64,000 nt of DNA from the human T2T-CHM13v2.0 reference genome, Homo sapiens: NCBI RefSeq assembly GCF_009914755.1, contig NC_060931.1; one strand, 5' to 3'. Positions 31,712 to 36,045 of the stretch are shown here, piece by piece; within the stretch, counting starts at the first letter, position 1; each line of letters begins with the position of its first letter. The position numbers were made by a program, and so were the translations under genes. The notes under the pieces are model-generated. The model worked only from the letters and a program-made list of their open reading frames with translations. It was not told the origin of the DNA and searched no databases.

Positions 31712-32031
31712 GGACGGCCGTGGTGGCTCCCGCCTGTAATCTCAGAACTTTAGGAGGCCAAAGTGGGTGGATCACCTGAGTTCAGGAGGTCAAGACCAGC
31801 CTGGACAACACGGCAAAACGCTGTCTCTACTAAAAGTACAAAAATTAGCCAGGCGTGGTGGTGTGCGTCTGTAATCCCAGCTACTCGGGAGGCCGAGGCA
31901 GGAGAATCGCTTGAACCTGGGAGGTGGAAGTTGCAGTGAGCTGAGATAGCACCACTGCACTCTAGCCTGGGTAACAGAGTGAGACTGTGTCTCAAAAGAA
32001 AACACAAAAAACAAAAAACAACAAAAACAAA
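31712..32031 (+). mobile_element. Alu (left breakpoint of inversion 1)
   Basis: AluS-type body with a diverged 5' end. Confidence 0.9.
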
Positions 32032-32402
32032 AGGAAGCCAACAGTGCTGCCTTCAGTCTGTGGCCGAAGGCCCAAGAGCTCCTGGCAAACCACTGGTTTA
32101 AGTTCAAGAGTTCAAAAGCTGAAGAACTTGGAGTCTGATGTTCGAGGGCAGGAAGCTTCCAGCACAGAAGATGAAGGCTGGAAGACTCAGTGAGTCTTCT
32201 TATTCCACTTTCTTCTTTCTGCTTTATTCTGGCCTCACTGGCTGATTAGACGCTGCCCACACAGATTAAGGGTGGGTCTGCTTCTCTCAGTCCACCGACT
32301 CAAATGTTAATTTCCTCTACCAACACCCTCACAGACATACCCAGAAACAATACTTTGCATCCTTCAATCCAATCAAGTTGATACTTAATATCAGCCATCA
32401 CA
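32032..32402 (-). mobile_element. MLT2B-type LTR, 5' portion
   Basis: Minus strand starts tgtgatggctgatattaagtatcaacttgattggattgaaggatgcaaagtattg. Confidence 0.85.
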
Positions 32403-32454
32403 CCTACCTACTGAATTTGAGAGCCTAGGCCACTTTCTGACCTTCCCTGAGCAA

Positions 32455-33320
32455 TCCCAGGCTGCCGTAAAAAATGCCTGCAAATTCTTTGACACTTTTT
32501 CCATGGAGAGGCGGGATCTATAACATCATTCCTTGCCAACAGGCAGGCTTTTGTGACTGCTTTGACCAAGAAAGTAGGGTAGAAGTGTCACTATGTGACT
32601 TCTGAGGTTAAGTCACAAAAAGCCATGGAGCTTCTACCTTATTTGCTGGGACTTTGTGCTGGAGCCCTGAGTCACTCTATGACGAGTCTGACTACCATGA
32701 GGCGGCCATGTTGTAGGGAAGACCAAGTCACACGAAGAGGCCCCGTGTCTGTACTCCAGTCAGCAGTCCCTGCCTTTGAGTCATCATCCGAGCCTCCCAG
32801 ACAACAAACGTGTGAATGACCAGTCTTCAAGTGATTCTGGCACCAGCCATGGAGTCATCCCCATCCTTAGAGTCCCCTGAGCTGAGGCCCTAGACATTAT
32901 GACAAGCCACCCTCACCATCCCTTTTCTGAATTTCTGATCCATAAGAACCCCTGAGCACACTGCTATGCTTTGGGGTTTTTTTTTGTTTTTTGTTTTTCT
33001 TTGAGATAGAGTCTCACTCTGTTGCCCAGGCTGGAGTATAGTGGTGTGATCTCAGCTCACTGCAACCTCCACCTCCTGGGTTTAAGTGATTCTTCTGCCT
33101 CAGCCTCCCGAGTAGCTGGGATTACAGGCACCCAACACCACGCCCAGCTAATTTTTGTATTTTTAGTAGAGACTGGTTTCACCATGTTGGCCAGGCTGGC
33201 CTTGAAGTCCTGACCACAAGTGATCTGTCCGCTTCGGCCTCCCAAACTGCTGGGATTACAGGCATGAGCCACCATGCGCTGTGCTTTGGGCTGATTCTTT
33301 ACAAAATATCATAATAACCA
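32455..33320 (+). mobile_element. Degenerate MLT1 LTR with an antisense Alu (~32976-33280)
   Basis: MLT1-like motifs gtgactgctttgaccaa, tgtgacttctgaggttaagtca, aatttctgatccataagaac. Confidence 0.6.
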
Positions 33321-34903
33321 TCACAGTGAGATTTAAATGTGATCTGTAGGGGGACAGGCTACACAGCCATAGTCTACTCCTCAGGGCTCTGGGGAAGATG
33401 AGAGCATGAATTTGAAATCAGATGAAAGTGACTTCAAGTCCTGCTGGACCACTTGCTCTGTGACCTCACCCACATCACTGAATTTCCCAGAATCCTCAGC
33501 TTCTCCACCTGTCACATGGAATCAGTTTTCACTTGGCAAGTTTGTTACATGCCTGGCGCTTGTAGATTGCGGCTACCAATCCTGTCTGGTTATTGGCAGA
33601 GGACATGCTGCCTGTGACAAGACACTGAGCCAAGAGATGCCTCTGTTGGGCTTCCAGAACGTGCTTCCTGTGCCAAGGCTCCAGTGTCCTTAGTGGAAGA
33701 GAGACGCCCTCACGGCCTGCCCTTTCTGGCCTGGCCAGGGCAGCATGACTCATTGGATGACCCCTCGCCCCATCCCAAATGTCACAGCCCTGCACCATGG
33801 CTTCCCTTAGACCCTGTGGCCCAAGGATACACAGTAGGCTGGGTCCACAGGAAACACCCAAAGCCACAGAATGCCATTTGCCCACTCCCCCATCTGTATC
33901 TCCTTTACCCATCTCTGTCACATATTGAGAAAATGGTTCCAGATTGGGGGTGCACACAGCCCCTGAGCTCCTGCAGCCATCAAGGCTCCTGACAGGCTGG
34001 AGCCGACCGAGAACTAGAGGCCGGCTCAGGCCAGAGCAGCCACACATAGCATTTCAGACAGACCCTGACTCAGGGCCAGTTCGTCTCTTTCTCCCTTAAG
34101 CCAGAGGAAATAGCCTCGCATGTCCATCAACTCTCTCATTGCCAGGTGGGATGCCTGAGATGTTGACAGTTAGAGACGGTGGGCTGTCTTTTCCGAAAGC
34201 CCCTGGTGTCCCCTCCTCCCCAGCTCCCGTCCCATCTGGAGCCTTCTTCCAACTGGAGATCACTTAGAAAAGACAAAGAAACCTTTAAACTAAGAATGCC
34301 TCCTGGAATGCCTCTTGCCTGTTTTATAGCTGCAGCTCAGCGGGCTGGTGAATGTGCTCTCTCGCCCACAGAAGCTCAAGAGAGGCATCCCATTCAAGGG
34401 GCCTGTGGTCACAGCATCCTGCTGTAAAAATAGCTGTGGATGGCCAGGCACGGTGGCTCACGCTTGTAATCCAAGCACTTTGGGAGGCAAGGTGGGAGGA
34501 TCACTGAGGTCAGGAGTTCGAGACCAGCCTGGCTAACATTGTGAAACCCCATCTCTGCTTACAAAAAAAAAAAAAATTAGCCGGGTGTGGTGGCACACAC
34601 CTGTAATCCCAGCTACTCAGGAGGCTGAGGCAGGAGAATCATTTGAACCCAGGAGGCGGAGGTTGCAGTGAGCCGAAATCACACCACTGCACTCCAGCCT
34701 GGGAGATGGAGGAAGACCCTGTCTCAAAAAAAAAAAAAAAAAAAAAAGAAAAGAAAAGAAAAAAAAAGCTGTAGAATCAATGGCTGACAGGAGGAGAAAG
34801 GGGTAGGGTTTTTCTGCCCAGTGGGACTGGAAGTCACCCTAAAAGTGAGTAGATGAGGTCTCTGAGCCAGGTCTGGGAACATGTGGCTGGATCTTGTTTG
34901 CTC

Positions 34904-35200
34904 TTTTTTTTTTTTCTTTTTTTTGAGACAGGGTCTCACTCTGTTGCCTAGGCTGGAGTGAAGTGGCACAATCAGGGCTCACTACAGCCTCCCAGCCTCA
35001 AGCAATCCTCCCACTTTAACCTCCCGAGTAGCTGGGACTACAGGTGCACACCACCATGCCTGGCTAATTTGTGTATCTTTTGTAGAGACGAGGTCTCGCT
35101 ATGTTGCTCAGGCTAACCTCAAACTCCTGGGCTCAAACGATCCTCCCGCCTCAGCCTCCCAAAGTGCTGGGATTACAGGTGTGAGCCACCGCACCCAGCC
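34904..35200 (-). mobile_element. Alu (right breakpoint of inversion 1)
   Basis: AluJ-type body. Confidence 0.9.
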
Positions 35201-35201
35201 A

Positions 35202-35366
35202 GCTTCCTGACTTTTGAGGTTTTGGGACTCCAACTGGCTTCCTTGCTCCTCAGCTTGCAGACGGCCTGTTATGGGATTGTGTGAGACAATTCTCCTTAAT
35301 AAACTCCCTTTCATATATACATCCATCTTATTAGTTCTGTCCCTCTAGGGAACCCTGGCTAATACA
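35202..35366 (+). mobile_element. MLT2B-type LTR, 3' portion
   Basis: ggcttccttgctcctcagcttgcagacggcc...aataaactccc...gaaccctggctaataca. Confidence 0.85.
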
Positions 35367-36045
35367 GTAGGGGAGCCAGAATTCAGATCCAGGCCTGAGG
35401 GACTCTGTCCCACAGCCAACTATGTGAGCCCAGGAAGTCCAGGAAACTCAGTGGGGGGTGGCACAGCATGGCAGGTGGTGACTCTCTGGCTACAGCCAGG
35501 AAGGCCTGCATTTGGAAAGGAGGCCAAGAAAGGAAGAGAGGTCGGGCCCCCTTTTGCTGCTGAGAGTGACCTTGAGAGGAGGCTGGGCCTTCCTTCAATG
35601 CCAGCTCCCTCTGACTCAGCCTGGACTGGGGCATCACCTCTCTGGGTCTGCGTGTCCCCACATGCCCTTCCTTAAGCCCCTGACCCAAGCCCTGGGGGAG
35701 GGAGGGGCTTACACTGCTCCCTCTTGCCTCACTCTCCATTGACAGCTGTAGAAACTGAGGCTCACAGGCTGGGCGTGGAGGCTCATGCCTATAATCCCAG
35801 CATTTTGGGAGGCCGAGGTGGGTGGATCACCTGAGGTCAGGAGTTTGAGATCAGCCTAGACAACATGGCAAAACCCTGTTTCTAGTAAAAATACAAAAAC
35901 TAGCCAGGTGTGGTGCTGCACGCCTATAATCCCAGCTACTCGGGAGCCTGAGGCAGGAGAATCGTTTGAACCCGGGAGACAGAGGTTGCAGTGAGCCCAG
36001 ATCGTGCCACTGCACTCCAGCCTAGGCAACAGAGTGAGACTCTGT

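What the first reader, a model, noticed from the sequence alone, without database searches (positions are those of the whole stretch)
31712..35371. ~3.3-kb Alu-mediated inversion upstream of MYL10, shown by a split LTR with inverted TSD
Seen: the 5' part of an MLT2B LTR is on the minus strand (32402-32032) and its directly contiguous 3' part is on the plus strand (35202-35366). The 5-bp ERVL-type TSD GTAGG flanks both ends but in opposite orientation (cctac 32403-32407; gtagg 35367-35371). The halves overlap at aggaagc/gcttcct (32032-32038; 35202-35208), the remnant TSD of an Alu whose tail is now at 32031 and whose head is at 35200. Inference: recombination between inverted Alus 31712-32031 and 34904-35200, probably near their 5' ends, flipped the intervening segment. 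The reciprocal Alu TSD is not clearly visible.
Basis: partly seen in the sequence, partly recalled or inferred. Interest (0 to 1): 0.7.

Follow-up and report, generated by a model that had tools for sequence, protein, structure and literature searches.

The report
Alu-mediated inversion splits old retroviral LTR
About 3 kb of DNA upstream of the MYL10 gene was flipped long ago by recombination between two oppositely oriented Alu repeats, leaving an ancient retroviral end-piece (a solo LTR) cut into two halves that point in opposite directions; it is a clean example of a well-known kind of rearrangement.

Summary
The two stretches (32402..32032 on the minus strand, 35202..35366 on the plus strand) are the two parts of one solo LTR. 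In 58 of 58 related copies elsewhere in this genome, both parts lie side by side in one orientation and overlap by 7 nt (57 copies) or 6 nt (1 copy). Alignments to relatives stop at the proposed edges. The 5-nt flanks GTAGG/CCTAC are reverse complements, and the family does make 5-nt duplications. Full-length inverted Alus sit at both junctions.

Measured against the other Alus of the window, Alu A has an old-looking 5' end on a younger body and Alu D the reverse. The switch lies near Alu position 45-65, as expected if the exchange was close to the 5' ends.

Three things remain open:
- The second Alu's duplication is not detectable.
- No outgroup genome could be consulted, so the date is only "after the younger Alu inserted".
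- The LTR belongs to the MLT2 (HERVL) group, in the ~550-bp class. The subfamily label "MLT2B" could not be verified.

This is an ordinary mechanism, and I found no published record of this locus.

The parts
31712..32031 (+). Alu A, full length, at the left junction. Roughly its first 45-65 nt look older than the rest, so it is read as a chimera: head of the older Alu, body and tail of the younger Alu that had inserted into the LTR.
   Evidence: I3; 13, 14, 16, 41, 46, 53. No direct repeat on its own two flanks (791 of 2000 shuffles score as well).
32032..32402 (-). 5' part of the solo LTR (371 nt, read on the minus strand; begins TGT at 32402).
   Evidence: relatives up to 86% identical; contiguity; edges.
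32032..32038 (-). Copy 1 of the 7-nt duplication made by the Alu that inserted into the LTR (AGGAAGC on the plus strand). It abuts the tail of Alu A. The last base could also belong to the A-tail.
   Evidence: (7-nt overlap of the two LTR parts in family coordinates).
32403..32407 (-). LTR target-site duplication, copy next to the LTR 5' end (CCTAC on the plus strand, i.e. GTAGG on the LTR's strand).
   Evidence: 26 of 40 complete relatives have 5-nt flanks matching at 4 or 5 of 5 positions.
32408..34903 (.). Remainder of the flipped segment. It holds Alu B (about 32976-33277, -) and Alu C (about 34441-34767, +), each with its own intact direct repeat, and a single-copy middle.
   Evidence: B 12 of 13, C 13 of 15; 33300-34430 matches only itself in the genome.
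34904..35200 (-). Alu D, full length, at the right junction. Its body is the more diverged and more 7SL-like, and its head is nearly unchanged, so it is read as the reciprocal chimera.
   Evidence: No direct repeat on its own flanks (1996 of 2000 shuffles score as well).
35202..35366 (+). 3' part of the solo LTR (165 nt; ends ACA at 35366). Its first 7 nt, GCTTCCT (35202-35208), are copy 2 of the Alu duplication.
   Evidence: relatives up to 87% identical.
35367..35371 (+). LTR target-site duplication, copy next to the LTR 3' end (GTAGG).

Best explanation
A retrovirus of the HERVL/ERVL kind inserted here and made a 5-nt duplication (GTAGG). It later collapsed to a solo LTR of about 529 nt. 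A younger Alu then inserted into that LTR in the opposite orientation to the LTR and made a 7-nt duplication (GCTTCCT). An older Alu already lay about 3 kb away, in the orientation opposite to the younger one. Homologous recombination between these two inverted Alus, most likely within their first 45-65 nt, flipped everything between the exchange points (roughly 31.76-35.15 kb of the window, about 3.4 kb).

The results are: the LTR's 5' part with its flank now reads on the minus strand next to the tail of Alu A; the LTR's 3' part stays on the plus strand next to the head of Alu D; and both Alus are reciprocal chimeras whose own flanks no longer match.

Shown: the split, the abutment, the inverted duplications, the inverted full-length Alus at both junctions, and the reciprocal head/body age pattern. 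Inferred: the order of events, the exchange mechanism, and the dates. No function is implied. The segment lies 2.5-6.2 kb upstream of the MYL10 start, and no regulatory feature is annotated in it.
For: - Sequence read directly.
- The two LTR parts abut with a 7-nt overlap in 57 of 58 relatives and 6 nt in 1 of 58.
- Alignments to relatives stop at the proposed edges.
- The family makes 5-nt duplications: 17 of 40 complete relatives match at 5 of 5 positions and 9 of 40 at 4 of 5. With flanks shifted as a control, 1 of 40 reaches 4 of 5 or better.
- Neither Alu has a direct repeat on its own flanks, whereas neighbouring Alus B and C do.
- Chimerism, judged against 47 other Alus of the window. 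In positions 1-55, 46 of 46 informative Alus are nearer D than A. In 56-130, 131-205 and 206-282 the counts nearer A versus nearer D are 40:7, 40:5 and 34:13.
- Head-minus-body identity ranks A 4th and D 48th of 49.
- The A-D contrast is among the top 8 of 1176 Alu pairs.
- At sites where A and D differ, the rarer base is in A 9:3 in the head and 18:35 in the body, Fisher p = 0.02.
- Three-point terminal branches, all columns / CpG-prone columns removed: A head 0.187/0.161, A body 0.107/0.068, D head 0.050/0.006, D body 0.148/0.110.
- The sliding window places the switch between Alu positions ~45 and ~65.
- The mechanism and its signature (inverted Alus over both breakpoints, chimeric Alus, mismatched duplications) are described in Lee et al. 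2008, PMC2603318 (passages).
Against: - The second, reciprocal duplication is not detectable. It should link the bases left of 31712 with the reverse complement of the bases left of 34904. The best match is a displaced 7-mer; 294 of 2000 shuffles do as well with 40-nt flanks and 59 of 2000 with 25-nt flanks. No partner was found at any other Alu of the window either.
- Taken one Alu at a time, counts of rare bases in head versus body are not significant. At the 20% threshold A is 6/50 versus 13/227 (p = 0.12) and D is 1/50 versus 23/221 (p = 0.093). At the 5% threshold p = 0.42 and 0.22.
- D's low body scores are partly due to subfamily differences from a panel made mostly of A-like Alus.
- The head is only 50-55 columns.
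- No second old repeat split across the other junction was found.
- No other genome, read set or repeat library was available, so the un-inverted state was never seen.
Confidence: 0.82

Rival explanations
1. The same inversion between the same two Alus, but the exchange took place in the A-rich tails, which are also inverted repeats of each other. In that case Alu A is wholly the Alu of the left site, and Alu D is wholly the Alu that had inserted into the LTR.
For: From about position 60 to its end each Alu keeps one character: across the panel, preference for A over D correlates between segments (r = 0.71, 0.35, 0.34). So the exchange must lie either before ~60 or in the tail. Both tails are long and impure. 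This model predicts the same flanks as the main one, so the duplications cannot decide between them.
Against: It predicts that head and body of each Alu have the same age. Instead A's head is more diverged than its body and D's head much less. It also requires the older-looking Alu (branch 0.110-0.148) to have inserted into an LTR whose own branch is 0.086-0.113, which strains the order of events.
Confidence: 0.1
2. A rearrangement coupled to retrotransposition. Breaks made by the L1 endonuclease during Alu insertion were joined crosswise, so the flip and one or both Alus arose in a single event, without Alu-Alu homology.
For: Small inversions of genomic DNA at L1-mediated insertion sites were seen experimentally: 3 insertions in PMC11702581 (passages). 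Staggered cuts would also leave a short duplication in inverted orientation.
Against: The two Alus differ clearly in divergence and type. Both are full length with exact heads. The reciprocal head/body pattern is not expected if each Alu were a single new insertion.
Confidence: 0.04
3. There was no inversion. Two separate LTR fragments of the same family happen to lie 2.8 kb apart in opposite orientation.
For: The family is abundant: thousands of first-look candidates and about 35,000 MLT2 copies according to PMC11319637.
Against: It would require two independent truncations at the same family position with a 7-nt overlap, outer flanks that are reverse complements of each other (1 in 1024), and an Alu tail on one break with an Alu head on the other.
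Confidence: 0.01
4. The arrangement is an assembly artefact or is private to this haplotype (CHM13).
For: Inverted repeats of 300 nt can mislead assemblers. Only one haplotype was examined here.
Against: Nothing in the sequence suggests a join error. The junctions fall inside continuous, full-length Alus.
Confidence: 0.03

Closest known systems
Alu recombination-mediated inversion (Alu-RMI; Lee et al. 2008, PMC2603318, passages read)
   Same: Two Alus in opposite orientation span the two breakpoints. Both become chimeras and their duplications no longer match. The size is within the reported range of 166 bp to 81 kb. The setting is GC-rich and Alu-dense: GC is 0.45-0.59 in the 500-nt windows from 31000 to 36499, and the window holds 53 Alus in 64 kb.
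   Different: Those 28 cases were found by comparing human with chimpanzee and so are younger than that split. This one was inferred from a single genome through a split LTR and is undated. That paper found no exchange hotspot along the Alu; here the exchange maps to the first ~45-65 nt. Whether this locus is in their Table S1 could not be checked, because supplements are closed.
Alu recombination-mediated deletion (ARMD; PMC2041999, seen only as a search listing and the start of the abstract)
   Same: Homologous exchange between two nearby Alus that leaves chimeric elements.
   Different: There the Alus are in direct orientation and the DNA between them is lost. Here they are inverted and the DNA is kept and flipped.
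Solo LTRs of the MLT2 group (LTRs of HERVL/ERVL, class ERV3; PMC11319637 parts 1-2 of 3 read; PMC5753468 passages)
   Same: TG...CA ends and a 5-nt duplication. Related copies are 517-585 nt long, with a median near 548. Published lengths are 550 (MLT2B3), 554 ('aba') and 549 (Repbase MLT2A2; PMC8559712 passages). It is colinear with the B3GALT5 LTR that print calls MLT2B3 or MLT2B5.
   Different: This copy is 529 nt long and is interrupted and split. It is only 62% (5' part) and 69% (3' part) identical to the B3GALT5 copy, so it is not of that copy's subfamily. Its subfamily stays open between MLT2A2/'aba' and MLT2B3, names on which two RepeatMasker versions disagree according to PMC11319637.
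Inversions at L1-mediated insertion sites and twin priming (PMC11702581, passages)
   Same: A retroelement sits at an inversion junction.
   Different: Those events invert part of the inserted copy or a stretch next to a single new insertion. Here two old, full-length Alus of different age flank the flipped DNA.

Membership tests
Alu recombination-mediated inversion | Two Alus in opposite orientation, one across each breakpoint | tested here: met
   Alu A 31712-32031 (+) and Alu D 34904-35200 (-); inverted repeat I3, 210 nt, 76% complementary.
Alu recombination-mediated inversion | Both Alus are reciprocal chimeras of the two original elements | tested here: met
   The evidence is statistical only; the original elements were not available. 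Head-minus-body identity ranks A 4th and D 48th of 49. The A-D contrast is among the top 8 of 1176 pairs. Branches: A head 0.187, A body 0.107, D head 0.050, D body 0.148. Single-Alu counts alone are not significant.
Alu recombination-mediated inversion | Neither Alu has matching direct repeats on its own two flanks | tested here: met
   for A's own flanks 791 of 2000 shuffles score as well, and for D's 1996 of 2000. Control Alus B and C have 12 of 13 and 13 of 15.
Alu recombination-mediated inversion | Flanks match crosswise in inverted orientation, first pair (the site inside the LTR) | tested here: met
   AGGAAGC at 32032-32038 and GCTTCCT at 35202-35208. This equals the 7-nt overlap of the LTR parts in 57 of 58 relatives. 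As a bare 7-mer in 25-nt flanks it is not rare (109 of 2000 shuffles); its weight comes from its position and from the LTR contiguity.
Alu recombination-mediated inversion | Flanks match crosswise in inverted orientation, second pair | tested here: not met
   Only a displaced 7-mer was found: 294 of 2000 shuffles (40-nt flanks) and 59 of 2000 (25-nt flanks). No partner at other Alus of the window.
Alu recombination-mediated inversion | Un-inverted arrangement present in an outgroup or another haplotype | not testable with these tools
The middle of the segment has no paralogue in this genome.
MLT2 LTR (HERVL/ERVL, ERV3) | Terminal TG...CA | tested here: met
   Begins TGT (reverse complement of 32400-32402) and ends ACA (35364-35366). 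This criterion is used in PMC11319637.
MLT2 LTR (HERVL/ERVL, ERV3) | 5-nt target-site duplication (that ERVL-type elements make 5 nt is recalled, not taken from a paper read here) | tested here: met
   GTAGG / CCTAC. Relatives: 17 of 40 match at 5 of 5 and 9 of 40 at 4 of 5, against 1 of 40 in the shifted control.
MLT2 LTR (HERVL/ERVL, ERV3) | Sequence likeness to a copy named MLT2 in print | tested here: met
   The only LTR of this kind in the B3GALT5 gene region (chr21:38041610-38042255 of G000) aligns colinearly: 62% over query positions 1-366 of the 5' part (E = 3e-24) and 69% over 90-165 of the 3' part. It was found only with a sensitive search; a default blastn found nothing. I assume this LTR is the promoter copy that print names.
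   The length class of relatives (median ~548) fits MLT2B3 (550), 'aba' (554) and Repbase MLT2A2 (549) equally. The copy's branch of 0.086-0.113 is no longer than that of the older Alu (0.110-0.148). That argues against the subfamilies MLT2B1 and MLT2B2, which print dates to before the human-mouse split (PMC1857806). No repeat library is on hand.
MLT2 LTR (HERVL/ERVL, ERV3) | LTR pairs flank an ERVL-type interior | not tested
   This would need inner genes, which this job bars for naming. I noted only that two relatives lie 6.8 kb apart in one orientation.

The most novel reading that the evidence does not exclude
The flip is recent: specific to humans or great apes, or still polymorphic. In that case about 3.4 kb lying 2.5-6 kb upstream of MYL10 has a different orientation in different lineages or people, with a possible effect on how that muscle gene is regulated. 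Nothing here excludes this, because the only time bound is 'after the younger Alu inserted'.
Probability: 0.1. Interest if true: 0.5.

Novelty: new member of a known kind. Interest (0 to 1): 0.3.

Why it matters
The case shows that a fixed, kilobase-scale inversion can be proved from a single genome when an older element with its own duplications happens to straddle a breakpoint. It also shows that the exchange point inside the Alus can be placed without an outgroup, by comparing head and body divergence of the two Alus. That is useful as a method and as a worked example. The biology itself, Alu-Alu recombination in an Alu-dense, GC-rich region, is textbook. It would gain interest only if the flip proved lineage-specific or polymorphic and touched MYL10 regulation. 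No regulatory feature is annotated in the segment.

Tried and rejected
- Second split element. I asked whether the bases left of Alu A and the reverse complement of the bases left of Alu D are parts of one older repeat, which would be a second proof. Both match only themselves in the genome, and a sensitive search within the window gave nothing above noise. My impression by eye that they resemble a MIR element is recall and was not supported.
- Second duplication. Local alignment of 40-nt and 25-nt flanks and of these flanks against the flanks of all 53 Alus of the window gave no convincing match.
- Paralogue with the un-inverted state. The single-copy middle (33300-34430) matches only itself.
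- Naming the subfamily from print. The B3GALT5 LTR gave no hit with default blastn and only 62-69% identity with a sensitive search. The 'aba' example in PMC11319637 is given in hg38 coordinates, which I could not transfer. GALNT13 (1.39 Mb) is too long to scan. I did not fetch ABCE1 or COL5A1, because an MLT2A1 copy (444 bp) would not settle A2 versus B3.
- 7SL polarisation (with RN7SL1 as L061). In Alu positions 56-120, D ranks 2nd of 49 in likeness to 7SL and A 29th. In 135-282 the ranks are 38th and 21st by score, although D's match reaches further into 7SL (1-94 against 1-67). This is suggestive only. The labels 'S-like' for the body of A and 'J-like' for the body of D are my recall of Alu subfamilies and come from no call.
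- Rare-base counts per Alu were not significant on their own.
- Print searches for this locus: 'MYL10' + 'inversion' gave 6 papers (5 listed), none relevant by title or abstract start. 'Alu recombination-mediated' + 'inversion' gave 25 papers, 15 listed. 'inverted Alu' + 'inversion' + 'target site duplication' + 'ancestral' gave 4 papers. 'HsInv' + 'chr7' + 'inverted repeats' gave 1 paper, whose only chr7 inversion lies at 54 Mb. Supplementary tables are closed, and Table S1 of PMC2603318 could list this locus.
- Dating uses a rate of 2.2e-9 substitutions per site per year. This is a recalled convention, not a call result.

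
Full report
WHAT IS THERE. I read window 31500-35600. The order of features on the plus strand is:
- Alu A (31712-32031, +), with its A-rich tail ending at 32031.
- AGGAAGC (32032-38), followed by an LTR-like stretch that reads on the minus strand up to 32402.
- CCTAC (32403-07).
- About 2.5 kb holding Alu B (minus strand) and Alu C (plus strand).
- Alu D (34904-35200, -), with its T-run at 34904 and its head at 35200.
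- One base (35201), then GCTTCCT (35202-08) opening an LTR-like stretch on the plus strand that ends ACA at 35366.
- GTAGG (35367-71).
A and D form an inverted repeat of 210 nt, 76% complementary (I3). The repeat-masked stretches in the annotation file cover both Alus and part of each LTR piece.

ARE THE TWO PIECES ONE LTR? I searched the window's own genome with each piece separately and never joined them.
- Both pieces belong to a large family: 3868 and 2623 first-look candidates, 40 scored in each search, best non-self identity 86% and 87%.
- In the 58 non-self loci saved, both pieces align to one uninterrupted copy in one orientation. One search gave an overlap of exactly 7 nt in 52, apparent -39 in 4, -6 in 1, and no second hit in 1.
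- Using the alignment block nearest the junction gave 7 nt in 57 of 58 and 6 nt in 1. The 7 nt are the GCTTCCT/AGGAAGC pair.
- With queries extended into the flanks and into the Alus, alignments to relatives stop at 32400-32404 (47 of 58), 32033 (37 of 58), 35202 or 35200 (50 of 58), and 35366 or 35367 (36 of 58).
- Among 40 relatives with complete ends, lengths run 517-585 nt. The 5-nt flanks match at 5 of 5 positions in 17 and at 4 of 5 in 9, against 1 of 40 at 4 of 5 or better when the flanks are shifted.
So the family makes 5-nt duplications, and the GTAGG/CCTAC pair is the duplication of one insertion, now in inverted orientation. The matching flanks also make this a solo LTR, of 371 + 165 - 7 = 529 nt.

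WHY AN ALU-ALU EXCHANGE. The Alu inside the LTR is itself split. Its tail side, with one copy of the 7-nt duplication, is at 32031/32032. Its head side, with the other copy, is at 35200/35202. Yet both junction Alus are full length and colinear. That requires breaks at the same Alu position in two inverted Alus, which means homologous exchange. Neither A nor D has a direct repeat on its own flanks, while Alus B and C do (12 of 13 and 13 of 15). Alu E (35767-~36045, +), just right of the LTR, also has one by eye. This is the signature described for retrotransposon recombination-mediated inversion: inverted elements over both breakpoints, chimeric elements, and duplications that no longer match (Lee et al. 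2008, PMC2603318, passages). That paper reports 28 Alu cases between human and chimpanzee. The 49 Alu and L1 cases together range from 166 bp to 81 kb, and 12 of the 49 came with deletions.

WHERE WAS THE EXCHANGE? I aligned the 49 Alus of the window that are 280 nt or longer (53 near-full intervals were found). I used only pairwise identities and per-column shares.
- From position 56 on, each of A and D keeps one character. The panel's preference for A over D correlates between segments (r = 0.71, 0.35, 0.34), and most panel Alus are nearer A (40:7, 40:5, 34:13).
- In positions 1-55 the picture reverses: 46 of 46 informative panel Alus are nearer D.
- Head-minus-body identity ranks A 4th and D 48th of 49. 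The A-D contrast is among the top 8 of 1176 pairs.
- Where A and D differ, the rarer base is A's 9:3 in the head and 18:35 in the body (Fisher p = 0.02).
- Three-point terminal branches (K2P; all columns / CpG-prone columns removed) are: A head 0.187/0.161, A body 0.107/0.068, D head 0.050/0.006, D body 0.148/0.110.
- The sliding window puts the switch between Alu positions ~45 and ~65.
- D's left arm is the most 7SL-like: rank 2 of 49 in positions 56-120. It is the only stretch in 30000-37000 that reaches Rfam's gathering score for Metazoa_SRP.
Together this says that A is the head of an older Alu joined to the body of a younger one, and D is the reciprocal. The younger Alu was therefore the one inside the LTR.
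Caveats: the head is only about 50 columns. Single-Alu counts are not significant on their own (p = 0.12 and 0.093; 0.42 and 0.22 at the stricter threshold). D's low body scores are partly a subfamily effect, because only 7 of 47 panel Alus are D-like. An exchange in the A-rich tails remains the main alternative.

WHAT IS MISSING. The duplication of the second Alu should link the bases left of 31712 with the reverse complement of those left of 34904. It is not detectable, and no partner exists at other Alus of the window. It may be decayed or short, or lost with a small deletion at the exchange; Lee et al. report deletions in 12 of 49 cases. No second old repeat split over that junction could be shown. 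No paralogue keeps the older arrangement. No other genome was available.

FAMILY.
- The LTR has TG...CA ends, a 5-nt duplication, thousands of relatives of about 548 nt, and a colinear but distant match to the LTR in B3GALT5 that print calls MLT2B3 or MLT2B5: 62% over the 5' part and 69% over part of the 3' part (PMC11319637, parts 1-2 of 3 read). That places it in the MLT2 group, the LTRs of HERVL/ERVL, class ERV3 (PMC5753468 passages).
- Published lengths are 550 (MLT2B3), 554 ('aba'), 453 (redefined MLT2A2) and 519 ('subaba') in PMC11319637, and 549 (Repbase MLT2A2) and 444 (MLT2A1) in PMC8559712 (passages).
- The relatives therefore fit the ~550-nt complex. For its 'aba' example, PMC11319637 reports that two RepeatMasker versions give different names (MLT2B3 and MLT2A2).
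Naming further would need a repeat library, not inner genes, and I did not look at any interior.

AGE.
- The three-point terminal branch of this copy is 0.113 for the 5' part (against 19 relatives chosen by the other part) and 0.086 for the 3' part (against 21 relatives chosen likewise). It is 0.096 and 0.075 against relatives chosen by the same part, which is biased low.
- At a recalled rate of 2.2e-9 per site per year, this is roughly 40-50 million years.
- PMC11319637 places most MLT2A2/'aba'/MLT2B3 insertions between the split from tarsiers and the last common ancestor of simians. PMC4419796 lists MLT2B1-4 as 'Eutherians' and MLT2A1/2 as 'Primates'. PMC1857806 dates MLT2B1 and MLT2B2 to before the human-mouse split.
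- The copy's branch is no longer than that of the older Alu (0.110-0.148), which fits the younger, primate-age complex.
- The younger Alu's branch (0.068-0.107) gives roughly 30-50 million years. The all-column figure is inflated by CpG decay.
- The inversion is later than that insertion. Nothing here bounds it from below.

SURROUNDINGS. The segment lies 2.5-6.2 kb upstream of the MYL10 start (29180, minus strand). The annotation file lists enhancers and one silencer elsewhere in the window but nothing between 24712 and 64000. GC is 0.45-0.59 in the 500-nt windows from 31000 to 36499. There are 53 near-full Alus in 64 kb, the kind of setting in which Lee et al. found Alu-mediated inversions.

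VERDICT. This is a real, well-supported, fixed or at least assembled inversion of about 3.4 kb made by recombination between two inverted Alus. It is revealed by a split solo MLT2-group LTR. The mechanism is ordinary, and I found no report of this locus in print with the searches; supplementary tables could not be seen. Interest is modest unless the flip proves lineage-specific or polymorphic.

Noticed in passing
window 35767-36245: Alu E (+) has a tail grown into a (GAAA)n/(AAGG)n microsatellite, 36046-36222. It still shows a 15-nt direct repeat on both sides, read by eye. Long tetranucleotide arrays of this kind are often length-polymorphic.
   Followed up: partly
whole window: Very Alu-dense: 53 near-full-length Alu-like intervals in 64 kb. 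35% of the window is masked as repeat in the annotation file.
   Followed up: partly
L013 and L011 (G000 chr12:120596144-120596521 and 120602957-120603333): Two relatives of the LTR lie 6.8 kb apart in the same orientation. That is the spacing expected of the two LTRs of one provirus. The interior was not read or translated.
   Followed up: no
window 35083-35199 (-): The left arm of Alu D is the only stretch in 30000-37000 that reaches Rfam's gathering score for Metazoa_SRP (72.4 bits against 70). This fits its 7SL-like, older type combined with an almost unchanged head.
   Followed up: yes
G000 chr21:38041610-38042255 (in L064 and L068): The only LTR of this kind in the B3GALT5 gene region is about 646 nt long and only 62-69% like the window LTR; I take it to be the promoter copy that print calls MLT2B3 or MLT2B5. 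A weaker second site, near 38039400-38039700, is hit by 16 alignment blocks from the 3' parts of relatives.
   Followed up: partly
window 33440-33520: By eye, a stretch inside the flipped segment looks like a MIR-type old SINE. This is recall only and was not tested with any tool.
   Followed up: no
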